DNA of 64,000 nucleotides from a virus: positions 64,001 to 128,000 of the IMG/VR virus record IMGVR_UViG_3300035670_000018. One strand, given 5' to 3'. Below, piece by piece: positions 2,200-56,865 of the stretch. A program made the translations under genes and the position numbers. How positions within the stretch are numbered: position 1 is the stretch's first letter; each line of letters opens with the position of its first letter. The notes under the pieces are model-generated. The model worked only from the letters and a program-made list of their open reading frames with translations. It was not told where the DNA came from and ran no database searches.

Positions 2200-3664
2200 A
2201 TTGATTGTTATGAATGTTGATGAGGCTTATGTCAAGGTTATATGTGATGACGGTATCGCATATGAACTACGTGAAGCATTCAAGTTCAAAGTTCCTAACT
2301 ATCAGTTTACACCCCAGTATAAGGCAAGACTGTGGAGTGGTGATATTTTTCTTTTTGATGTGCGTAGTAGGCGGCTTTACAGGGGTTTAGTTCCCTATCT
2401 GTTTAAGTTTGCCGAAGAAAGAGATTATGATATTGATTATGAAAACGAAGACTATGATGAAGAGTTTTCGTTAGCGGAAGCAAAAGAGTTTGTAGAACTA
2501 ATAAGGCCGAAACATGCTCCAAGAGATTACCAGTTGGATGCATTCGTTCACGCTATTCGCACAAGGCGCGCTTTACTACTTAGCCCCACTGCAAGTGGTA
2601 AGTCTCTTATTATTTATTTTCTTACTCGTTTTCTGGAACACAGAGGTTTAAAACGAGGTTTGATAATCGTACCAACTGTTTCTCTTGTAGAACAGTTGAC
2701 AAGCGATTTCAAAGATTATAGTGAAACGAATGGATGGAACGTTAGCGACAAAGTACATAAGATTTATCAGGGTCAGGAAAAGTCTAGCGATAAGTTTCTG
2801 ACGATTTCAACTTGGCAGTCTATCTATCAACTGCCGAAGAAGTATTTTATTGACTACGATTTCGTGATTGGTGATGAAGCACATCTATTCAAAGCCAAAT
2901 CTCTAATAGATATTATGACGGGATTATCTAATGCAAGATATAGAATCGGAACTACTGGAACTTTGGACGGTACAAAAACCCATAGATTGGTACTTGAAGG
3001 ACTGTTTGGCTCAGTTCGTAAAGTTATCACCACCAAAGAACTCATGGATGCAAAGCACTTGGCTGAGTTCCAAATCAAGTGCTTACTACTTAGACACAGT
3101 GAGTCTATCTGTCAAGCATCAAAGAACTTTACCTATCAGCAGGAGATTGAATACCTTGTCCTTAACGATGCCAGAAATCGGTTCATCTCTAATCTGGCTG
3201 TCTCACTTGAAGGAAACACGCTCGTTCTCTTCCAGTACGTTGACAAGCACGGACGCATTCTACACAAACTCATTTCTGACAAATTGGGAGTGGACAGAAA
3301 GGTATTCTTCGTAAGTGGTAAAACAGATGTGGACATACGTGAAGAGATTCGTAAGATCGTTGAACAGGAAACGCAGGCTATTATTGTTGCTAGTTTTGGC
3401 ACTTTTAGCACTGGCATCAATATTAGAAATCTTCATAACATTATCTTTGCTAGCCCGTCTAAGTCTAGGATAAGAAACTTGCAATCCATTGGTCGTGTAT
3501 TACGTAAGAGTGAAACAAAAGATTCAGCAACTTTGTTTGATATCGCCGATGATATGAGATACAAAAAGCATGAGAACTATACATTGAAGCATTTTGCTGC
3601 CAGAATACAGATATATGGTGAAGAAAAGTTCAAGTTTAAAATATACAAAATCGAATTGAAATAG
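2177..3664 (+). CDS. uvsW: SF2 DNA/RNA helicase UvsW
   Basis: SPTASGKS Walker A, DEAH, QSIGRVLR. Confidence 0.95.
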   Translation: MENSVNNRLIVMNVDEAYVKVICDDGIAYELREAFKFKVPNYQFTPQYKARLWSGDIFLFDVRSRRLYRGLVPYLFKFAEERDYDIDYENEDYDEEFSLAEAKEFVELIRPKHAPRDYQLDAFVHAIRTRRALLLSPTASGKSLIIYFLTRFLEHRGLKRGLIIVPTVSLVEQLTSDFKDYSETNGWNVSDKVHKIYQGQEKSSDKFLTISTWQSIYQLPKKYFIDYDFVIGDEAHLFKAKSLIDIMTGLSNARYRIGTTGTLDGTKTHRLVLEGLFGSVRKVITTKELMDAKHLAEFQIKCLLLRHSESICQASKNFTYQQEIEYLVLNDARNRFISNLAVSLEGNTLVLFQYVDKHGRILHKLISDKLGVDRKVFFVSGKTDVDIREEIRKIVEQETQAIIVASFGTFSTGINIRNLHNIIFASPSKSRIRNLQSIGRVLRKSETKDSATLFDIADDMRYKKHENYTLKHFAARIQIYGEEKFKFKIYKIELK

Positions 3665-25900: not shown

Positions 25901-26762
25901 GCCAAAGTTGAAACTCGGATTCACAGACTACTACAAGACACTTGATGATTTCTTCATGAGTGTCTTGTCAATGTCTTTTGACATTGAACGAGATGATGTA
26001 AATCCGGACTATCTTATCTTCTGTGATGAAACATTTGGACAGAACAATAAGAACTTTGATCCAAACAAGACTGTAAAGATTTTCTTCACTGGCGAAAACA
26101 GACGACCATATCATTATCAAGCACATCATGCTATCTCATTTGATCACTTAGATGGACACCAGTTCTATCGTTTGCCTCTTTATGTCTTAGACAATTGGGT
26201 GCAGACTAAGAATGGTGTCCCTGATATGTTGGAAGAAAAAAGAAGCTATGTTCACTATGACGATAAAGAATGGTTCTGCGGATTTGTAGCATCTAATCCT
26301 GCTGGTGAATATCGCAATCACATCTTTCACAAATTAAATGAATATAAGCCAGTCATGTCTGGTGGACCTTTGTTCAATAATATTGGTAGTGTGTTGCCGC
26401 GTGATGTAAACTCTAAGATTGATTTCTTTCGTAAGTGTCGTTTCTCTTTGTGCTTTGAGAATAGTTCATGGCCAGGTTATTGTACCGAAAAGATAATGCA
26501 CGGCTTCATTGCTAGGACTGTTCCAATCTATTGGGGTTCACCAACTGTTTCTATGGATTTTCAAGAGGGATCATATATCTCTCGTCATGATTTTGTGAGT
26601 GACAATAGCTTCATTGATGCTATTATTCGCGTGGATCAAGACAAGAGTGTTTGGCAAATTATAGCAAATACTCATCCTCTTCCATATAATAACGATAAAT
26701 TTTGGAGCTTAGAACGCTTCAATAGATGGTTCTTAGAGAATGTTTATAGAGGTGAAAGATGA
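25893..26762 (+). CDS. GT10 alpha-1,3-fucosyltransferase-like protein
   Basis: FTGEN, FSLCFENS..GYCTEKI..VPIYWG. Confidence 0.9.
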   Translation: MTKPKLKLGFTDYYKTLDDFFMSVLSMSFDIERDDVNPDYLIFCDETFGQNNKNFDPNKTVKIFFTGENRRPYHYQAHHAISFDHLDGHQFYRLPLYVLDNWVQTKNGVPDMLEEKRSYVHYDDKEWFCGFVASNPAGEYRNHIFHKLNEYKPVMSGGPLFNNIGSVLPRDVNSKIDFFRKCRFSLCFENSSWPGYCTEKIMHGFIARTVPIYWGSPTVSMDFQEGSYISRHDFVSDNSFIDAIIRVDQDKSVWQIIANTHPLPYNNDKFWSLERFNRWFLENVYRGER

Positions 26763-50159: not shown

Positions 50160-50974
50160 ATGATCAAGACACAGTGGAAAATCAAGATTGGCGACATGAT
50201 CCATGTTCGCACTCATTACAAGTATGGTGTGATGGATAATGTCCATATCAAGTCTGGAAAGGTAGTGCAAAGTGAGCGACATGATCCCGTTGGTACTTTT
50301 CGTTTGTATACAGGTAATCCTCAGTACCCCGTTTCTCTTATCGCAGATGAACGGGTCACTGGCATTAAGCTTCGTGAGGTCGCGTAATGGCTAGTATTCA
50401 TGTACCGTCAGGTAAACTGACATGGGAAGAAAAGTTGGAGATCCGCAAACACGCGCTAGAGTGTGCCGCTAGGACGTATCAAGGACAAGGCGCATTTAAT
50501 GCAGAAAACGTTACCAATCGTGCTGCAATCTTTGAAGACTACTTGATGGGGAAGAATGATGGTTAAGTCTTATGATGTAAGTTTTCATCTTGACGAATCT
50601 CTTGCAGGATGGTATCTTTACTGCTTTGAGGACGATGATGTAGTCCATGAGCAGTTCTTCCGCGACCGCGATGATGCTCACGCTATGGGCCATCGCTTTC
50701 TTGATGGACTGTATGTCAAGGGTTTCCCGATTGAGGAACTGGCATGAGAAAGCAGAGTCTTTGGAATCGATTTCTTAACTGGTACAGTCCAGTTTGGGGT
50801 ATGCTCGTTCCGCTTGTCATCGCAGTAGGCTTTCTTTTTGTTCTAGAATATAAAGCAGATGAACAAAAGCTTGCATTTTCTAATGCCTGTGCTACAATGG
50901 GTGGTGTCGCATTGATTGGACGTAACGGAACAAAAGTTTGCTTCAAGCAGGATGTTGTCCTGTCTGTACACTAA
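50160..50974 (+). CDS. small hypothetical ORFs (50160-50387, ~50387-50560, 50556-50747, 50744-50974)
   Basis: Translationally coupled run after TTGACA-17-TAAGAT at 50125. Confidence 0.55.
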
Positions 50975-50991
50975 ATAAAATACAGTTTAAT

Positions 50992-51074
50992 GGCCACGTA
51001 ACCGATGGCGGCTTCTACCCGCTTAACCGTAACTGGAGTTGAAAATGGGAGTTCGAATCTCTCCGTGGTCGCCA
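50992..51074 (+). tRNA. atypical tRNA-Arg(TCT), D-arm absent/rearranged
   Basis: GGCCACG/CGTGGTC acceptor, GGCGG-CTTCTAC-CCGCT, GGGAG-TTCGAAT-CTCTC, GCCA. Confidence 0.7.
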
Positions 51075-51096
51075 TTTCAAATTATGGAGAAAGTGA

Positions 51097-51363
51097 ATGT
51101 CTGCACCGAAGACCAAGACCAAGTACACTTCTAAGGGTGAGCGTGAAGCGAACCGTAGCTTGTCAAAGGCTATCAAGCGTGATCGCACAGTCATTGAGAA
51201 GTCTCAGATCAAGCAGAAGGCATGGTTGAAGGGACAGAACCCTTGGATCGTCGTGCCGAATGAGAATACAGCCGATACTAAGGCACGGTTTGTTCGCGTT
51301 CGTGCTGAGACTGAGTGGGGTGATCCGCGCAAGGGCTTCATGTTCGGCGCGATGAAGGACTAA
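51097..51363 (+). CDS. basic hypothetical protein
   Basis: GGAG SD; YTSKGER, AWLKGQNPW. Confidence 0.65.
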   Translation: MSAPKTKTKYTSKGEREANRSLSKAIKRDRTVIEKSQIKQKAWLKGQNPWIVVPNENTADTKARFVRVRAETEWGDPRKGFMFGAMKD

Positions 51364-51370
51364 GATTAAC

Positions 51371-51447
51371 GCCCCCTTAGCCCAGCGGTAGGAGGCACCG
51401 GACTTAAAATCCGTACAGGGACAGTTCGAATCTGTCAGGGGGTACCA
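51371..51447 (+). tRNA. tRNA-Leu(TAA), short variable loop
   Basis: Cloverleaf, CT-TAA-AA loop, CCA. Confidence 0.85.
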
Positions 51448-51452
51448 AATTT

Positions 51453-51528
51453 GCATCTGTAGCACAGCGGTTAGTGCTATCGGCTCATAACCGATTGGTC
51501 CTTGGTTCGAATCCAAGCGGATGCACCA
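51453..51528 (+). tRNA. tRNA(CAT), probably Ile2
   Basis: ATCGG-CTCATAA-CCGAT; Ile2-like body. Confidence 0.9.
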
Positions 51529-51533
51529 AATAA

Positions 51534-51623
51534 CGGAGTGAGACTAAGAGTCAGAGAGGACTTATAAACCTTTTGCAGCCGATTACTGCCTTTGAGGTGG
51601 AGCGTTACCACCCACTCCGACCA
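51534..51623 (+). tRNA. atypical tRNA-like RNA with TAT anticodon (Ile)
   Basis: CGGAGTG/CACTCCG-ACCA; CT-TAT-AA; T-stem GGTGG/CCACC with loop AGCGTTA. Confidence 0.55.
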
Positions 51624-51628
51624 ATATT

Positions 51629-51705
51629 GCCCTCGTAGCCCAACTGGCAGAGGCAGCAGATTCAAATCCTGCTCAGTGTAAGTTCGACTCTTACCGAGGG
51701 CACCA
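51629..51705 (+). tRNA. tRNA-Leu(CAA), short variable loop
   Basis: Leu-type D arm, TT-CAA-AT loop, CCA. Confidence 0.8.
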
Positions 51706-51714
51706 AAAAAAAAG

Positions 51715-51755
51715 TTGACAAAAACATAAAATCCAGCTAGGATGTTGTATAAATA
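51715..51755 (+). promoter_or_regulatory. tandem sigma70 and late promoters
   Basis: TTGACA-17-TAGGAT then TATAAATA (51748-51755). Confidence 0.8.
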
Positions 51756-51779
51756 GAATACAGTTTAAGAAAGACGGAA

Positions 51780-51866
51780 ATGAAACCCATTCTACCTCCA
51801 TTTACAATTAATCAAGAAACATGCCAGCCATCATGGGCAGGTGTGATGAGGGGTTCTATGTATTAA
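51780..51866 (+). CDS. putative attenuator leader peptide MKPILPPFTINQETCQPSWAGVMRGSMY
   Basis: 28-codon ORF between promoters and terminator; its 3' end is complementary to the terminator arm. Confidence 0.65.
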   Translation: MKPILPPFTINQETCQPSWAGVMRGSMY

Positions 51867-51890
51867 GTCTTAGTACAGACTTAGTTTCTT

Positions 51891-51929
51891 AGAACCCCGA
51901 AGCCAAAAGTTTCGGGGTTCTTCGTTTTT
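51891..51929 (+). terminator. intrinsic terminator (attenuator)
   Basis: AGAACCCCGAAGC-CAAAA-GTTTCGGGGTTCT-TCGTTTTT. Confidence 0.85.
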
Positions 51930-51932
51930 ATA

Positions 51933-52072
51933 GTTGCGTCCAGTGCATAGCAGATATGCGAAAAAAGAATAAGAAAAGACTTGAAATTGGCTGCGACAAG
52001 CACTATATTAGATATGTAAGAGAGAAAAGAGTTTCCCAGCCGCGCGGGACAAGATGCGGTCGCTGTTTAACA
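51933..52072 (+). promoter_or_regulatory. TATGC triple box, TTGAAA-17-TATATT promoter and boxA-like site
   Basis: CGCTGTTTAACA at 52061-52072 vs rrn boxA TGCTCTTTAACA. Confidence 0.6.
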
Positions 52073-52164
52073 TTGTTAAGTTCCTATGAGTTACCCTTGC
52101 TCACTCAAGGGCGCACTGAGTAGCGAAATATCCAGTGAGGGACTGTGACTCAGCACAGCCTCAC

Positions 52165-52289
52165 ATTCTATCTCTTCAGATATGCACCGGGCATTGTAGC
52201 TACTGCCTAGTGTGGCACAGTCGCGCTGCTTCGGTGGCGTTCAAGATGAACTGTTCGATTCAGTTGGTGCATATCTGAAGTGATAGAAT
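52165..52289 (+). ncRNA. tRNA-like RNA closed by a 24-bp stem
   Basis: ATTCTATCTCTTCAGATATGCACC / GGTGCATATCTGAAGTGATAGAAT; T-arm AACTG-TTCGATT-CAGTT. Confidence 0.65.
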
Positions 52290-52293
52290 ACAT

Positions 52294-52370
52294 TCCTCTC
52301 AAGCCAACTAGGTGGAGGCAACTGACTGTTAATCAGTGTACGACAGGTTCGAATCCTGTGGGGGGAGCCA
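52294..52370 (+). tRNA. tRNA-Asn(GTT)
   Basis: ACTGA-CTGTTAA-TCAGT, GCCA. Confidence 0.92.
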
Positions 52371-52376
52371 ATTCAT

Positions 52377-52463
52377 GGACCAGTCGCCTAGTGGCTATGG
52401 CAGCAGACTCTTAATCTGTCGTGAGAAATCACATCGTGGGTTCGAGTCCCACTTGGTCCTCCA
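52377..52463 (+). tRNA. tRNA-Lys(CTT) with long variable arm
   Basis: GCAGA-CTCTTAA-TCTGT; GTGA-GAAA-TCAC. Confidence 0.85.
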
Positions 52464-52468
52464 ATCAT

Positions 52469-52542
52469 GGCCTATTAGTGAATGGATATCACACCGCTCT
52501 GTCTAAGCGGAGAAGCGAGTTTGAGCCTCGCATAGGTCGCCA
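52469..52542 (+). tRNA. tRNA-Asp(GTC)
   Basis: CCGCT-CTGTCTA-AGCGG, GCCA. Confidence 0.88.
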
Positions 52543-52613
52543 TTTAGTACGCCTGTCCCGCTTTGGGAAGTTGGGTAGGGTTGACGGCACCCTCGCAGTA
52601 CGAAAGCCGTTAT

Positions 52614-52691
52614 CTGAGTGTACGAGAGTCTGGTTACATCCCATAGATTTGGAATCTATGAACGCAGGTTCGAATCCTGCCACTCAGACCA
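52614..52691 (+). tRNA. tRNA-Pro(TGG)
   Basis: ATAGA-TTTGGAA-TCTAT, C1-G72, ACCA. Confidence 0.85.
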
Positions 52692-52696
52692 ATTAT

Positions 52697-52770
52697 ATCA
52701 GTGTAGTGTAACGGTAGCACGGCAGCCTCCAAAACTGCTTGTCAGGGTTCGAATCCTTGCACTGGTGCCA
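52697..52770 (+). tRNA. tRNA-Trp(CCA)
   Basis: CT-CCA-AA loop, GCCA. Confidence 0.92.
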
Positions 52771-52773
52771 GTC

Positions 52774-52884
52774 AGAAAGAGCGGTAGTCGGAGTGCGAAT
52801 CCGATGAGAACATGCCTGTGATCGCACACAGGCATTAAGTATCCTCACCATAGACTTCGGTCAACATAGAGGAACGCTCTTTCT
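52774..52884 (+). ncRNA. unassigned four-way-junction RNA
   Basis: AGAAAGAGCG/CGCTCTTTCT enclosing three hairpins. Confidence 0.55.
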
Positions 52885-52939
52885 ACTTGACTTTACGTGA
52901 TGCCTCGTCTATAATAAGACAACAATCAACGAGGTAACT

Positions 52940-53155
52940 ATGGCAAAGATGACGATTAAGAAAGTGATGGAATTACAAGATCATTTCATCAAAGCTGGTA
53001 TTATGAAAGACCCTAAGTCTTATACCGCAGATGAATTGAAGTATCTTAATCCTGCTATTCCATCTGACTTCATTGATGATTATGTTGATGTTCGTGATGG
53101 TAAGAAGAAAGAAAGCGACTGGCAGCGTATTCCGCTGAAGATCGAAGATTTGTAA
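52940..53155 (+). CDS. hypothetical protein
   Basis: GAGG SD; TTGACT-17-TATAAT at 52887. Confidence 0.7.
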   Translation: MAKMTIKKVMELQDHFIKAGIMKDPKSYTADELKYLNPAIPSDFIDDYVDVRDGKKKESDWQRIPLKIEDL

Positions 53156-53161
53156 TACAAT

Positions 53162-53236
53162 GGGCTTGTAGTATAATGGGTATTATCTCCCGCTTGCACC
53201 GGGAAGAACAGGGTTCGATTCCCTGCTTGTCCACCA
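53162..53236 (+). tRNA. tRNA-Ala(TGC)
   Basis: G3-U70, CT-TGC-AC loop. Confidence 0.88.
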
Positions 53237-53244
53237 AGTTTAAC

Positions 53245-53318
53245 GCCTCTATAGTTCAATGGCAGAACGCCTGTTTTGTAATCAGGATATCAGGGTTCGA
53301 TTCCTTGTCGAGGCACCA
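53245..53318 (+). tRNA. tRNA-Thr(TGT)
   Basis: Cloverleaf, TT-TGT-AA loop. Confidence 0.9.
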
Positions 53319-53320
53319 GT

Positions 53321-53439
53321 TTAGCGTTGTAGGAGCAGAAGTGACCTTGTTGGGATGGTCTGCTGTATGCGGCTCACAGGCGAGTTGAGGGGTTTGATCA
53401 CCCCAAGTCTGGCGAGGGTTCAATTCCCTCCAACGCTAA
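53321..53439 (+). ncRNA. tRNA-like RNA without CCA or clear anticodon arm
   Basis: TTAGCGTTG/CAACGCTAA, T-arm GAGGG-TTCAATT-CCCTC. Confidence 0.55.
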
Positions 53440-53445
53440 TCTAAT

Positions 53446-53516
53446 TTGATCTGGCTACGTAGCAGCAATGTGCGTCATGAATGTCAGACAGTCAACCAAA
53501 TAACTGTGCGGTTGAC
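53446..53516 (+). ncRNA. pseudoknot RNA motif, copy A
   Basis: Covaries with copy B (53613-53698). Confidence 0.6.
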
Positions 53517-53524
53517 ACCAGTTT

Positions 53525-53610
53525 GGGTGAGCGGCAACGACGGTGAGTTGCGGCGGACTGTAAATCCCCTGTCTATGACTTAGAAGGTTCGAATCCTTTC
53601 TCACCCACCA
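53525..53610 (+). tRNA. tRNA-Tyr(GTA)
   Basis: CT-GTA-AA loop, long variable arm, ACCA. Confidence 0.9.
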
Positions 53611-53612
53611 AA

Positions 53613-53698
53613 TTGATTTAGCTACTCACACAGTATGGTTACGCCATATCTTAGAGTCACGAATGCTAAACAACCAGACTTAATACTGTGCTGTCTGG
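53613..53698 (+). ncRNA. pseudoknot RNA motif, copy B
   Basis: TTTAGC/GCTAAA, ACTC/GAGT, CCAGAC/GTCTGG, CACAGTA/TACTGTG. Confidence 0.6.
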
Positions 53699-53708
53699 AT
53701 TATTTTAT

Positions 53709-53794
53709 ACTACCTTATCCAAGTGGTTGAAGGAAGGCGGCCGATAACCGTCTGGCGAAAGCCCGCGTTTGTTCGAATCAAACAGGTAGTACCA
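53709..53794 (+). tRNA. tRNA-Ile(GAT) with C33 and long variable arm
   Basis: GGCGG-CCGATAA-CCGTC; GGC-GAAA-GCC. Confidence 0.8.
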
Positions 53795-53872
53795 TTTCCT
53801 GTGCTTGCAATCTCTCAGTTAAAAGCTGTTGCAAGATTAAGTGTTATGTCTAATATGACATAGACACAGGAT

Positions 53873-54157
53873 CTATTCTCTTGAAGGATAAAGACCTTCA
53901 ACCACCATATGTGGTACAAGTTCGTCATCATGCCATTCGCGTCTGACTTTCTTGCCATAGTCTGGTCCAGAATCAACGAATGGTCTTAAGTCTGGTAGTG
54001 CGAAAGTGTGAATACCATCGCCACCCCAACGGGTGCCCAGTAGAGAGAACAAAGGTTCATGATGTTGAATTTCTAATATCTGCCCGCGACATACCACAGT
54101 GTCTCTTGTGTTCCAAGTAAAAGGCAGATAAACAACTTGACTAATATAAGCTTCCAT
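53873..54157 (-). CDS. phage tail-collar domain protein
   Basis: CRGQIL..LFSLLGTRWGGDG..FALPDLR, GLYPSR; minus-strand CTAAATA and GGAG SD. Confidence 0.8.
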   Translation of the reverse strand: MEAYISQVVYLPFTWNTRDTVVCRGQILEIQHHEPLFSLLGTRWGGDGIHTFALPDLRPFVDSGPDYGKKVRREWHDDELVPHMVVEGLYPSRE

Positions 54158-54197
54158 GGTATACTCCATTATATGAGTTGACATGGTATTTAGTTAT

Positions 54198-54271
54198 TGG
54201 GAGATCATCTAAAGGTAGGATAGCGGTCTTTGAAACCGCCGATCTTGGTTCGATTCCAAGTCTCCCAGCCA
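54198..54271 (+). tRNA. tRNA-Gln(TTG)
   Basis: U1-A72, GCGGT-CTTTGAA-ACCGC. Confidence 0.92.
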
Positions 54272-54323
54272 ATTCGTGCTTGCATAGCATATAGTCAATA
54301 GATGTAGCCGCACTACAATAGAC

Positions 54324-54407
54324 GGACTGGTTACCGTAGTGGCGAACGGCGCTGACTTTTAATCAGCTATGCAAACACCGTGGGTTCGAGTCCCACCCAG
54401 TCCTCCA
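54324..54407 (+). tRNA. tRNA-Lys(TTT) with enlarged variable region
   Basis: GCTGA-CTTTTAA-TCAGC, TCCA. Confidence 0.85.
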
Positions 54408-54412
54408 ATTAT

Positions 54413-54487
54413 GGCGCATTAGTTTAGTGGTCAGAATACTGGGCTTTCAATCCGGGGAGAAGGGTTCAATTCCCTTATGCGCTGCCA
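54413..54487 (+). tRNA. tRNA-Glu(TTC)
   Basis: CT-TTC-AA loop, GCCA. Confidence 0.9.
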
Positions 54488-54492
54488 AATAT

Positions 54493-54570
54493 TGCGGGAT
54501 AGAGCAGTCAGGTCAGCTTGCTAGGTTCATATCCTAGAGGTCGCAGGTTCGAATCCTGCTCCCGCTTCCA
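54493..54570 (+). tRNA. tRNA-Met(CAT), initiator-like
   Basis: 1:72 mismatch, fMet-like D arm GAGC..GCTT. Confidence 0.85.
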
Positions 54571-54571
54571 T

Positions 54572-54646
54572 GCTGCATTAGTCTAGTGGTTAAGACGCAG
54601 GTCTGTGAAACCTGTTACGGCGGTTCGATTCCTCCATGCAGTACCA
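54572..54646 (+). tRNA. tRNA-His(GTG), no G-1, A73
   Basis: CAGGT-CTGTGAA-ACCTG; preceded by T, ends ACCA. Confidence 0.9.
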
Positions 54647-54651
54647 TTTAT

Positions 54652-54725
54652 TGCCCGGTCGTCTAACGGTAGGACGCCAGATTCTGACTCTGGCTATCGT
54701 GGTTCGAATCCATGCTGGGCAGCCA
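54652..54725 (+). tRNA. tRNA-Gln(CTG)
   Basis: CCAGA-TTCTGAC-TCTGG. Confidence 0.92.
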
Positions 54726-54729
54726 ATAT

Positions 54730-54804
54730 GGGGTAATGGTGAAATGGGAACACCGTGGTCTGCAAAACCATTATGAGTAGGTTCGATTCCTACTTACCCC
54801 TCCA
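54730..54804 (+). tRNA. tRNA-Cys(GCA)
   Basis: CT-GCA-AA loop, U73. Confidence 0.92.
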
Positions 54805-54810
54805 AACTAT

Positions 54811-54904
54811 GCATCCGTATCCCCCTTGGCTACGAACCAAGAGTAAGGTAACTGGAGATGGTCAGAGATGACTAATGCAGGTTCGAATCCTGTCGGATGC
54901 TCCA
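54811..54904 (+). tRNA. atypical tRNA-Arg(ACG), D-arm absent/rearranged
   Basis: GCATCCG/CGGATGC, CTTGG-CTACGAA-CCAAG, GCAGG-TTCGAAT-CCTGT, TCCA. Confidence 0.7.
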
Positions 54905-56653: not shown

Positions 56654-56856
56654 GCTAACTCCGACGGGAGTTGGCCGAGTGCAAGGAAATGACTGCTCAC
56701 CAGGAGCGGTTAACTTGGCTAGATGGTGTGGTGCCCGTGCGCGACTGACGAGAGTCAGAGGCGTATCGTCTCCGACCAAGAGAATCTAGGCTGACACGTG
56801 GCAGATACAAGGTATCTTGGTCGTGTCTTGTGGGTGTACCCCAGTCCCACCTCACC
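56654..56856 (+). ncRNA. unassigned ~200-nt structured RNA
   Basis: GC-rich, at least seven helices, preceded by ATAAATA. Confidence 0.6.
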
Positions 56857-56865
56857 TTATTAAAT

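What the first reader, a model, noticed from the sequence alone, without database searches (positions are those of the whole stretch)
50992..54904. Two topologically rewired tRNA-Arg genes with the D-loop moved 3' of the anticodon arm
Seen: both RNAs (50992-51074, TCT; 54811-54904, ACG) have normal acceptor, anticodon and T arms plus CCA, but only 7-8 nt where the D-arm belongs. Both carry TAACTGGA, an Arg-type D-loop with GG and the following A, after the anticodon arm. The 5' linker can pair around it with compensatory changes: TAAC-CG with CG[TAACTGGA]GTTG, and TATC-CC with GG[TAACTGGA]GATG. No canonical Arg tRNA is present although the other 19 amino acids are covered. Known: D-loop A20 is the major ArgRS identity element. 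Inference: functional tRNAs that rebuild the L-shape by a different strand path, possibly evading host anti-tRNA nucleases. I know of no description of this fold, but could not search.
Basis: partly seen in the sequence, partly recalled or inferred. Interest (0 to 1): 0.9.

Follow-up and report, generated by a model that had tools for sequence, protein, structure and literature searches.

The report
Rewired arginine tRNAs of a phage
This T4-like phage's only two arginine tRNA genes are conserved members of a mostly unannotated family found almost only in phages, in which the anticodon arm sits inside the D stem and the D loop is a side bulge, so they are probably working tRNAs that are not cloverleaves.

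Summary
Both genes are real: 50992-51074 (anticodon UCU) and 54811-54904 (ACG). Each has a 7-bp acceptor stem, anticodon arm, T arm and encoded CCA, but only 7-8 nt where the D arm belongs, and TAACTGGA lies 3' of the anticodon arm. ARAGORN finds 28 tRNAs for the 19 other amino acids and no Arg; the whole 167-kb genome holds no other Arg tRNA.

I found 68 distinct Arg-type homologues in the viral contigs and phage records fetched (Felix O1, Vibrio D260, Caulobacter Ccr10, Stenotrophomonas DLP_6, Xanthomonas X1). Only three copies turned up in 596 Gb of cellular genomes.

C11-C12 pair with GG, position 10 with the first base after the bulge, and "ATG" belongs to a variable hairpin.

The base after GG is A in 68/68 Arg types and U in Ile and Lys versions. 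The bulge's third base covaries with the base before the T stem. The two anticodons read about 90% of the phage's Arg codons.

Charging, expression and any nuclease evasion are untested. I found no published description. This scan met the family before on other DNA.

The parts
50972..50990 (+). Promoter-like 19-mer TAAATAAAATACAGTTTAA. It ends 1 nt before tRNA 1 and resembles a T4-type late-promoter box (cTAAATAa).
   Evidence: A second exact copy lies at 51750-51768 and contains TATAAATA. There are 3 matches against 0.1 expected by chance. The 3' part (AAATACAGTTTAAT) is conserved with the tRNA in relative L033, while sequence further upstream is unrelated. Promoter function is inferred.
50992..51074 (+). 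Rewired tRNA-Arg(UCU), type A, 83 nt with encoded CCA.
   Evidence: Read from the sequence. RF00005 gives 27.6 bits. The family model R1 gives 93.6 bits. ARAGORN does not find it.
50999..51004 (+). tRNA 1, 5' strand of the split D stem (T8 A9 A10 C11 C12 G13). A14 follows at 51005 and position 26 at 51006.
   Evidence: In A1, pair 10:50 is GC in 25 and AU in 9 sequences. Pair 11:49 is CG 32, AU 1, UA 1. Pair 13:39 is GC 33, AU 1. Pair 12:40 is CG in all 34. The 8:52 (U-G) and 9:51 (A-U) pairs never vary.
51007..51023 (+). tRNA 1 anticodon arm, GGCGG-CTTCTAC-CCGCT. The anticodon TCT is at 51014-51016.
   Evidence: All 5 stem pairs show changes on both sides across A1. U33 and A37 are present.
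51028..51041 (+). tRNA 1: CG (pairs with G13, C12), the 8-nt D-loop-like bulge TAACTGGA (51030-51037; G18 G19 A20 equivalents at 51035-51037), then GTTG (pairs with C11, A10, A9, T8).
   Evidence: A follows GG in 68/68 distinct Arg-type homologues. The third bulge base covaries with the base 5' of the T stem.
51042..51063 (+). tRNA 1: AAAAT connector, whose last T is the position-48 equivalent, and the T arm GGGAG-TTCGAAT-CTCTC.
   Evidence: Four of the five T-stem pairs covary and the T loop is TTCGAAT.
54811..54904 (+). Rewired tRNA-Arg(ACG), type B, 94 nt with encoded CCA.
   Evidence: Read from the sequence. RF00005 gives 32 bits. R1 gives 49.6 bits. ARAGORN does not find it.
54818..54824 (+). 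tRNA 2, 5' linker TATCCCC. T10 (54820) pairs with the first base after the bulge. C11 and C12 (54821-54822) pair with GG at 54847-54848.
Evidence: In A3, 11:38 is CG in 17/17. Pair 12:37 is CG 13, GC 2, AU 1, UA 1.
54825..54841 (+). tRNA 2 anticodon arm, CTTGG-CTACGAA-CCAAG. The anticodon ACG is at 54832-54834.
   Evidence: All 5 stem pairs covary. The loop CTACGAA occurs in 20 of 21 ACG-type homologues.
54847..54858 (+). tRNA 2: GG, the bulge TAACTGGA (54849-54856), then G (pairs with T10) and A.
   Evidence: sequence.
54859..54874 (+). tRNA 2 variable hairpin, TGGTCA-GAGA-TGACTA (6 bp with a GNRA loop).
   Evidence: It is part of the minimum-free-energy and centroid folds. The same hairpin with compensating stem changes occurs in L006, L013 and L023 (GGTG/CACT, GGTA/TACC, GGCA/TGCC).
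54877..54893 (+). tRNA 2 T arm, GCAGG-TTCGAAT-CCTGT.

Best explanation
The two genes are the phage's own arginine tRNAs, for AGA/AGG (UCU) and for CGU/CGC/CGA (ACG, presumably deaminated to ICG by host TadA). They have a non-cloverleaf secondary structure. The acceptor stem, anticodon arm and T arm are canonical. The D stem is not closed by a D loop. Its 5' strand (positions 8-13) is followed directly by the anticodon arm. Its 3' strand comes after the anticodon arm and is split by an 8-nt bulge, UAACUGGA, that carries the D-loop residues R15, G18, G19 and A20. The anticodon arm is therefore nested inside the D stem, and the D loop leaves from the side of the helix. Inferred steps follow. The bulge still docks on the T loop through G18/G19 with U55/C56. 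It makes a Levitt-type pair with the base just before the T stem. It presents A20 to the host ArgRS, so an L-like shape and arginine identity (A20, C35, U36 or G36) are kept. The RNAs are transcribed from phage promoters, one immediately upstream of tRNA 1, trimmed by RNase P and used by host EF-Tu and ribosomes. Shown: the genes, the fold by covariation, the family and its distribution. Inferred: three-dimensional shape, charging and use in translation.
For: (1) The whole genome has tRNAs for 19 amino acids and none for Arg other than these two. (2) AGA makes up 35% and CGT+CGC+CGA 55% of Arg codons in the window's ORFs. (3) The family comprises 68 distinct Arg-type sequences with only Arg anticodons (UCU, ACG, UCG, GCG, CCU); 51 of them encode CCA. 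(4) On 34 type-A homologues 99.6% of cells pair, 20 of 24 pairs show changes on both sides, and 0 of 500 shuffles reach the observed score. RNAalifold finds the same structure unaided. The split D stem shows compensatory changes at 10:50, 11:49 and 13:39. (5) For type B, pair 12:37 has four pair types and 11:38 pairs in 17/17. (6) The base after GG is A in 68/68 Arg types but U in the Ile(GAU) and Lys(CUU) genes of the same design. This matches bacterial identity rules: A20 for Arg and U20 among the Ile determinants (PMC9976931). (7) The third bulge base and the base before the T stem are A with U in 63 sequences, G with C in 2, and G with G in 3-4. G is never found with U. (8) Of 23 tRNA-rich related loci with a rewired Arg gene, 14 have no separate canonical Arg tRNA, and only 3 carry a canonical one with the same anticodon. 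(9) tRNA 1 is 100% identical to the L033 copy, while the ORF next to it has diverged and the upstream sequence is unrelated.
Against: No charging or decoding data exist. The three-dimensional shape is conjecture; a nested long arm with a bulge might not give the canonical anticodon-to-CCA geometry. The 8:52 and 9:51 pairs never vary, so they are unproven. In type B the pair after the bulge is a standard pair in only 9 of 17 sequences. Single-sequence folding of tRNA 1 prefers a local hairpin and is no more stable than shuffled sequence (z = 0.15). Some phages (DLP_6, L003, L028) carry a canonical Arg tRNA with the same anticodon beside the rewired one, so it is not always indispensable. The homologues were gathered with sequence patterns and filters that demanded perfect acceptor, T and anticodon stems, so the pairing percentages for those stems are partly built in.
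Confidence: 0.77

Rival explanations
1. The fold exists mainly for immune evasion. The rewired core makes the phage's Arg tRNAs invisible to host tRNA-cleaving defence nucleases that read the canonical body, or to a phage activity that destroys host tRNA, while the tRNAs still work in translation. This is an added purpose on top of the best explanation, not an alternative identity.
For: Host defences that cut tRNAs, and phage tRNAs that resist them through sequence changes, are documented: PARIS AriB, Retron-Eco7 PtuAB, P2 OLD, Septu and bacterial Schlafens (abstracts; PMC10264068; PMC12445682 read). The family is almost confined to phages: 3 rewired copies in 596 Gb of cellular genomes, at least one beside prophage genes, and 0 of 150 further genomes of one class. 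The same window also carries Lys tRNAs with unusual long variable regions, and tRNA-Lys is a known nuclease target.
Against: My searches turned up no defence nuclease specific for tRNA-Arg. The anticodon loops are the ordinary Arg loops (CTACGAA, CTTCTAA/C), so nucleases that read the anticodon loop would not be evaded. Nothing in the window links the genes to a defence or counter-defence gene. No experiment has been done.
Confidence: 0.25
2. These are tRNA-shaped RNAs with a role outside translation, such as a decoy or sponge for ArgRS or a nuclease, a primer, or a donor for arginyl transfer. They keep tRNA-like ends but are not used on the ribosome.
For: The core is unlike that of any tRNA known to work on bacterial ribosomes. 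The abstract of PMC11551756 states that all known bacterial tRNAs are cloverleaves. Other tRNA-like elements without an assignable anticodon lie in the same cluster at 52182-52276 and 53323-53441.
Against: The anticodon loops are strictly tRNA-like, with U33, a purine at 37 and only Arg anticodons. The anticodons fit the phage's codon usage. They fill exactly the one gap in an otherwise complete set of 19 amino acids. Where a canonical Arg tRNA is also present, its anticodon usually differs.
Confidence: 0.1
3. They are decaying tRNA pseudogenes, or products of a rearrangement, with no function.
For: Standard tRNA finders reject them. Phage tRNA clusters do hold fragments and relics.
Against: There are 68 distinct versions in unrelated phage groups (T4-like, Felix O1, Ccr10, D260, X1), with compensatory changes in every stem and invariant functional residues. 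The copy in L033 is 100% identical despite diverged flanks.
Confidence: 0.02
4. The gene is a precursor that RNA processing (splicing, permutation or trans-ligation) converts into a canonical cloverleaf.
For: Permuted and split tRNA genes exist in some algae and archaea (from my own knowledge, not checked here).
Against: The order of parts here is acceptor 5' strand, D 5' strand, anticodon arm, D loop with D 3' strand, T arm, acceptor 3' strand. That is not a circular permutation of the canonical order, so cutting and circularising cannot restore a cloverleaf. No intron-like motif is present. The 5' and 3' ends already form a perfect acceptor stem with CCA.
Confidence: 0.02

Closest known systems
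Canonical bacterial and phage tRNA-Arg (Rfam RF00005), e.g. E. coli tRNA-Arg(ACG) and tRNA-Arg(UCU), and the annotated tRNA-Arg-TCT and -ACG of Stenotrophomonas phage DLP_6
   Same: A 7-bp acceptor stem with discriminator and CCA. A 5-bp anticodon stem with a 7-nt loop (CTACGAA or CTTCTAA/C). A T arm with the TTCGAAT loop. GG followed by A, as in the Arg D loop. U8, A9 and A14 at the usual places after the acceptor stem.
   Different: There is no D hairpin. The anticodon arm lies between the two strands of the D stem, and the D-loop residues form a bulge in the 3' strand. RF00005 scores are 27.6 and 32 bits, against 44-68 for most of the other tRNAs of this phage.
Metazoan mitochondrial D-armless tRNAs, e.g. 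human mt-tRNA-Ser(AGY) (PMC9427863)
   Same: No D hairpin between the acceptor stem and the anticodon arm, yet a working tRNA.
   Different: Those tRNAs have lost the D-loop elements and depend on co-evolved mitochondrial synthetases and ribosomes. Here the D-stem strands and D-loop residues (G18, G19, A20, R15) are kept but re-threaded. The T loop is fully canonical, and the partners would be ordinary bacterial enzymes.
allo-tRNAs and other non-canonical bacterial or phage tRNAs with 8/4 or 9/3 acceptor/T branches (PMC5389517)
   Same: Natural tRNAs found in metagenomes, some in phages, that depart from the 7/5 cloverleaf and are missed by standard finders.
   Different: allo-tRNAs keep the cloverleaf order of arms and alter only stem lengths. 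Here the stem lengths are canonical and the order of strands is changed.
Phage tRNAs that escape tRNA-targeting defences by sequence change (PMC10264068; the T5 tRNA against PARIS, PMC11464382; phage tRNA-Thr against P2 OLD, PMC12445682)
   Same: Phage-borne copies of tRNAs that differ from the host's in ways that could block recognition by nucleases.
   Different: The known cases are point changes in the anticodon loop or stem of ordinary cloverleaves. Here the anticodon loops are ordinary and the body is rebuilt. No nuclease target is known for this case.

Membership tests
tRNA (canonical cloverleaf, Rfam RF00005) | 7-bp acceptor stem, discriminator base and 3' CCA | tested here: met
   GGCCACG/CGTGGTC-G-CCA and GCATCCG/CGGATGC-T-CCA. 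All 7 acceptor pairs covary in 34 homologues.
tRNA (canonical cloverleaf, Rfam RF00005) | Anticodon arm with a 5-bp stem and a 7-nt loop carrying U33 and a purine at 37 | tested here: met
   CTTCTAC and CTACGAA loops. All stem pairs covary.
tRNA (canonical cloverleaf, Rfam RF00005) | T arm with a 5-bp stem and a T-psi-C loop (TTCRANY) | tested here: met
   GGGAG-TTCGAAT-CTCTC and GCAGG-TTCGAAT-CCTGT.
tRNA (canonical cloverleaf, Rfam RF00005) | D arm as a hairpin (stem 10-13 with 22-25 closing the D loop) between the acceptor stem and the anticodon arm | tested here: not met
   Only 7-8 nt separate the acceptor stem from the anticodon stem. The partners of positions 10-13 lie 3' of the anticodon arm.
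tRNA (canonical cloverleaf, Rfam RF00005) | Score at or above the Rfam gathering cut-off of 29 bits, or detection by ARAGORN | tested here: inconclusive
   tRNA 1 scores 27.6 bits, below the cut-off; tRNA 2 scores 32 bits, above it. Neither appears in the gathering scan of the window or in the ARAGORN output.
Bacterial arginine tRNA identity set (A20, C35, U/G36, A/G/U73; PMC9976931) | C35 with U36 or G36 in the anticodon | tested here: met
   The anticodons are TCT and ACG. Every Arg-type homologue carries an Arg anticodon.
Bacterial arginine tRNA identity set (A20, C35, U/G36, A/G/U73; PMC9976931) | A20 in the D loop, directly after G18 G19 | tested here: inconclusive
   An A follows GG in both genes and in 68/68 Arg-type homologues, while the Ile and Lys versions have U. 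Whether it occupies the position-20 pocket in three dimensions cannot be tested with these tools.
Bacterial arginine tRNA identity set (A20, C35, U/G36, A/G/U73; PMC9976931) | Aminoacylation by ArgRS | not testable with these tools
   This needs an in vitro arginylation assay or an in vivo charging assay.
Rewired phage tRNA-Arg family (model R1 built here from 34 sequences) | The 5' linker TA-N-C-C-G pairs on both sides of a TA-R-N-N-GG-A bulge 3' of the anticodon arm, with an AAAAT-like connector to the T arm | tested here: met
   tRNA 1 scores 93.6 bits and tRNA 2 49.6 bits, against at most 35 bits for the phage's canonical tRNAs. tRNA 1 was in the seed alignment, so its score is partly built in. 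tRNA 2 was not in the seed.
Mitochondrial-type D-armless tRNAs | The D arm is replaced by a short connector and the D-loop/T-loop contact elements are lost | tested here: not met
   GG, A20-like and R15-like residues and both D-stem strands are retained, and the T loop is canonical.
Class II tRNAs (long variable arm: Leu, Ser, Tyr) | A long variable hairpin together with a normal D arm | tested here: not met
   tRNA 2 has a 6-bp variable hairpin but no D hairpin. In tRNA 1 the local hairpin alternative is not conserved: pair 37:50 forms in only 7 of 34 sequences.

The most novel reading that the evidence does not exclude
A natural, non-cloverleaf tRNA fold, with the anticodon arm nested inside the D stem and the D loop as a lateral bulge, works on ordinary bacterial ArgRS, EF-Tu and ribosomes. 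It has spread among unrelated phages because the rebuilt body escapes host enzymes, or phage-made enzymes, that recognise and destroy canonical tRNA bodies. The same design has been reused for Ile and Lys by swapping the identity base after GG.
Probability: 0.25. Interest if true: 0.92.

Novelty: new variant of a known kind. Interest (0 to 1): 0.8.

Why it matters
If these RNAs are charged and decode, they break the rule that bacterial translation uses only cloverleaf tRNAs. They would show a second way of threading an RNA chain into a tRNA-like body. They would also show how ArgRS finds A20 when it is delivered by a different strand, and they offer a natural scaffold for orthogonal tRNA engineering.

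In practical terms, tRNA finders leave an apparent "missing arginine tRNA" in many phage genomes, including Felix O1, Ccr10, DLP_6, D260 and X1, so tRNA complements and codon-usage arguments for phages are biased. If the fold serves to escape tRNA-targeting immunity, it would be a new class of counter-defence that acts through RNA architecture and not through point mutations.

Tried and rejected
- **Megablast against cultured phages.** The 4.1-kb region gave no match. Distant blastn with each tRNA gave only partial hits, which nevertheless led to DLP_6, Ccr10, D260 and X1.
- **Single-sequence folding**. For tRNA 1 the minimum-free-energy fold uses a local TTAAC/GTTGA hairpin and is no better than shuffled sequence. 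I rejected that hairpin because it is not conserved.
- **Loose viral patterns.** By my own estimate of chance matches, most of these hits are probably chance, and only those passing a structural filter were used.
- **Processing into a canonical order.** I rejected the idea that RNA processing restores a cloverleaf, because the order of parts is not a circular permutation of the canonical one.
- **Literature.** Six full-text searches found no description of this fold. They cannot see most subscription journals.
- **Neighbouring ORF.** A PHROG scan of the small ORF after tRNA 1 failed on a coordinate slip and I did not repeat it.

Full report
**What is there**

The window is bases 64001-128000 of a 167-kb IMG/VR virus record that is rated complete. 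The phage is T4-like. It has a gp43-type DNA polymerase 50-52% identical to those of cyanomyoviruses, a UvsX-like recombinase, an SbcC-like nuclease subunit and helicases. Its host is unknown.

ARAGORN finds 28 tRNA genes, all on the + strand between 36375 and 58724. They cover 19 amino acids but not arginine. RF00005 run over the whole genome finds no tRNA outside this region. It scores the two candidates at only 27.6 bits (50992-51071) and 32 bits (54811-54901), where most of the other tRNAs score 44-68 bits.

Each candidate has a perfect 7-bp acceptor stem, a discriminator base, an encoded CCA, a normal anticodon arm (CTTCTAC with TCT; CTACGAA with ACG) and a normal T arm (TTCGAAT loop). 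Only 7-8 nt lie between the acceptor stem and the anticodon stem. The octamer TAACTGGA sits after the anticodon arm.

**It is a family, not a local accident**

An exact pattern shared by the two genes (GTAACTGGAG, 8-30 nt, GTTCGAATC) hits 43 viral contigs. A structural filter applied to all fetched loci gives 68 distinct Arg-type sequences. Their anticodons are UCU, ACG, UCG, GCG and CCU only, and 51 of them encode CCA.

Members occur unannotated in cultured phages of unrelated groups:
- Stenotrophomonas phage DLP_6 and Caulobacter phage Ccr10;
- Vibrio phage D260, 85.6 bits with my model;
- Salmonella phage Felix O1, at 25951-26031;
- Xanthomonas phage X1.

T5 and KVP40 have none.

The same exact pattern finds 26 places in 596 Gb of bacterial and archaeal genomes, and only three of them have the rewired design. 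One is a 641-bp MAG contig. The other two are copies in Gellertiella hungarica, one of them beside a caudovirus prohead protease gene. None of 150 further genomes of that bacterium's class has a match at E <= 1e-10. On this evidence the family is almost confined to phages.

**The fold of tRNA 1 (type A)**

I aligned 34 distinct homologues (A1). RNAalifold, given no hint, returns five helices:
- the acceptor stem;
- 8-11 with the four bases after the bulge;
- 12-13 with the two bases before the bulge;
- the anticodon arm, including a 26:44 pair;
- the T arm.

Counting pairs on that structure gives 99.6% paired cells and 20 of 24 pairs with changes on both sides. None of 500 shuffles reaches the observed covariation, and sliding the partners collapses the pairing to 35-50%.

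In the split helix the pairs are:

| Pair | Types seen |
|---|---|
| 10:50 | GC 25, AU 9 |
| 11:49 | CG 32, AU 1, UA 1 |
| 13:39 | GC 33, AU 1 |
| 12:40 | CG 34 |
| 8:52 (U-G), 9:51 (A-U) | never vary, so untested |

The search pattern did not constrain column 10, so the perfect G/A with C/U association is a fair test. The alternative available in this particular sequence, a local hairpin TTAAC/GTTGA that single-sequence folding prefers, is not conserved: its central pair forms in 7 of 34 sequences.

In canonical numbering the D stem G10-C25, C11-G24, C12-G23, G13-C22 is intact. However, A14, the whole anticodon arm and a 4-5-nt linker lie between 13 and 22, and the D-loop residues bulge out between 23 and 24.

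**The fold of tRNA 2 (type B)**

In 17 homologues (A3) the register TATC/GATG plus CC/GG pairs in 41% and 76% of cells for its two helices. The register one base over gives C11-G in 17/17. It gives position 12 with its partner in 17/17, with four pair types (CG 13, GC 2, AU 1, UA 1). Position 10 with the first base after the bulge forms a standard pair in 9/17 (UG, CG, GC, UA), and most of the rest are A opposite G.

The "ATG" after the bulge belongs to a variable hairpin (TGGTCA-GAGA-TGACTA). That hairpin is in the minimum-free-energy fold. It recurs with compensating stems and GNRA loops in L006, L013 and L023.

So both genes share the principle of a 5' linker pairing on both flanks of a bulged D loop. 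The bulge sits one pair further towards the 5' end in type B, and the resemblance TAAC/GTTG versus TATC/GATG between the two paralogues is partly coincidence.

**Signs that the bulge is a working D loop**

- G18-G19 equivalents are invariant.
- The next base is A in 68/68 Arg-type genes. It is U in two Ile(GAU) genes and one Lys(CUU) gene of the same design, and C in an Ile(UAU)-like one. A20 is the main determinant for bacterial ArgRS, and U20 is listed among the Ile determinants (PMC9976931).
- The third base of the bulge (R15 equivalent) and the base just before the T stem (position-48 equivalent) go together. They are A with U in 63 sequences, A with C in 1, G with C in 2 and G with G in 3-4, and never G with U. 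That is the pattern of the Levitt pair. The G15 cases are few and some may be related, so this is suggestive only.

**Signs of use in translation**

- AGA accounts for 35% and CGT+CGC+CGA for 55% of Arg codons in the window's long ORFs. These are the codons read by UCU and by ACG after deamination.
- The ACG loop CTACGAA occurs in 20 of 21 ACG-type members.
- Of 23 related loci with at least 10 tRNAs and a rewired Arg gene, 14 show no separate canonical Arg tRNA in the stretch held. Only three have a canonical one with the same anticodon.
- tRNA 1 is identical in L033 although the neighbouring ORF has diverged and the upstream region is unrelated. What is shared upstream is a short box, AAATACAGTTTAAT.
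- That box is part of a 19-mer that occurs twice in the window, at 50972-50990 and 51750-51768. The second copy contains TATAAATA. This suggests a T4-type late promoter right in front of tRNA 1, which is inference.

**How it most likely works**

My reading is that these are the phage's arginine tRNAs. The long arm (8-13 helix with bulge, small internal loop, 26:44 pair, anticodon stem) has about 13 stacked layers. That is about the length of the D-stem-plus-anticodon limb together with the core layers of a normal tRNA. The connector to the T arm is 5 nt, like a variable loop.

I infer that the bulge runs up to the T loop and returns through A20, as positions 14-21 do in a cloverleaf. An L-like body, the ArgRS contact at A20 and the acceptor/T-arm surface for RNase P and EF-Tu would then be preserved. 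None of this three-dimensional picture could be tested here.

**Why phages would do this is open**

Escape from enzymes that recognise the tRNA body is attractive, because many defence systems cut tRNAs and phage tRNAs are known to resist them. However, my searches found no nuclease specific for tRNA-Arg, and the anticodon loops here are ordinary.

**Comparison and novelty**

The genes work like tRNA-Arg, but they fail one defining feature of the cloverleaf family, the D hairpin. They differ from mitochondrial D-armless tRNAs, which have lost the D-loop elements. They differ from allo-tRNAs, which keep the order of arms.

Six full-text searches found no description. A 2024 paper states in its abstract that all known bacterial tRNAs are cloverleaves (PMC11551756).

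Earlier notes of this scan report the same family on other phage DNA, including Felix O1. I checked Felix O1 myself. Those notes are unchecked AI notes and do not count as independent evidence.

**Verdict**

The register for tRNA 2 needs correcting. Function as noncanonical Arg tRNAs is likely, at about 0.77. The purpose of the rewiring is unknown.

Noticed in passing
window 52377-52463 and 54324-54407: The two tRNA-Lys genes (CTT, 87 nt; TTT, 84 nt) have a normal D arm but unusually long variable regions. The CTT one has a GTGA-GAAA-TCAC hairpin. Caulobacter phage Ccr10 has annotated tRNA-Lys genes of 87 and 91 nt. tRNA-Lys is a known target of defence nucleases.
   Followed up: partly
window 53709-53794: ARAGORN's tRNA-Ile(GAT) is 86 nt, with a 3-bp D stem, a long variable arm (a class II-like body) and C at position 33 of the loop CCGATAA. 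It is absent from the RF00005 lists.
   Followed up: no
window 52182-52276, 53323-53441 and about 51535-51625: Further tRNA-like elements have a 7-bp acceptor-type closing stem and a T-arm-like hairpin (TTCGATT, TTCAATT). They have no CCA and no assignable anticodon arm, and they match no Rfam family.
   Followed up: partly
L138:3891-3971(-), L167:9723-9803(+), L167:10358-10450(+), L161:11000-11080(-): The same rewired design carries Ile (GAT twice, TAT once) and Lys (CTT) anticodons. The base after GG is then U (C in the TAT gene) and not A, so the architecture is not restricted to arginine.
   Followed up: partly
L045 (Caulobacter phage Ccr10) about 2890-2965 and 3090-3176: Two more unannotated tRNA-like genes flank the rewired Arg(ACG). 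One has a GTT (Asn) loop. The other has a CCG (Arg) loop and an oversized, roughly 17-nt D loop that contains GAGCAGGA.
   Followed up: no
L044 (Stenotrophomonas phage DLP_6) about 3095-3180: An unannotated tRNA-like gene with a GTC (Asp) loop and an aberrant D region lies directly after the rewired Arg(ACG). This phage also has annotated canonical tRNA-Arg-TCT and -ACG.
   Followed up: no
L062:4371-4450 and L065 (Gellertiella hungarica DSM 29853): A cultured alphaproteobacterium carries two copies of a rewired tRNA-Arg(TCT). In these a 4-bp CGGC/GCCG helix precedes the bulge. One copy lies between a caudovirus prohead protease gene and O-antigen genes, which suggests a prophage end.
   Followed up: partly
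window 56657-56858: A manA RNA motif (RF01745, 61.6 bits) lies inside the tRNA cluster.
   Followed up: no
window 51097-51363: An 88-aa basic ORF directly downstream of tRNA 1 is conserved together with the tRNA in L033, at roughly 90-95% nucleotide identity by eye. L016 shares the first 10 nt of the same downstream flank. Its function was not examined.
   Followed up: no
window 50972-50990 and 51750-51768: The 19-mer TAAATA(A/G)AATACAGTTTAA is repeated. The second copy overlaps TATAAATA and follows a sigma-70-like TTGACA...TAGGAT site. These are possibly phage promoters driving parts of the tRNA cluster.
   Followed up: partly
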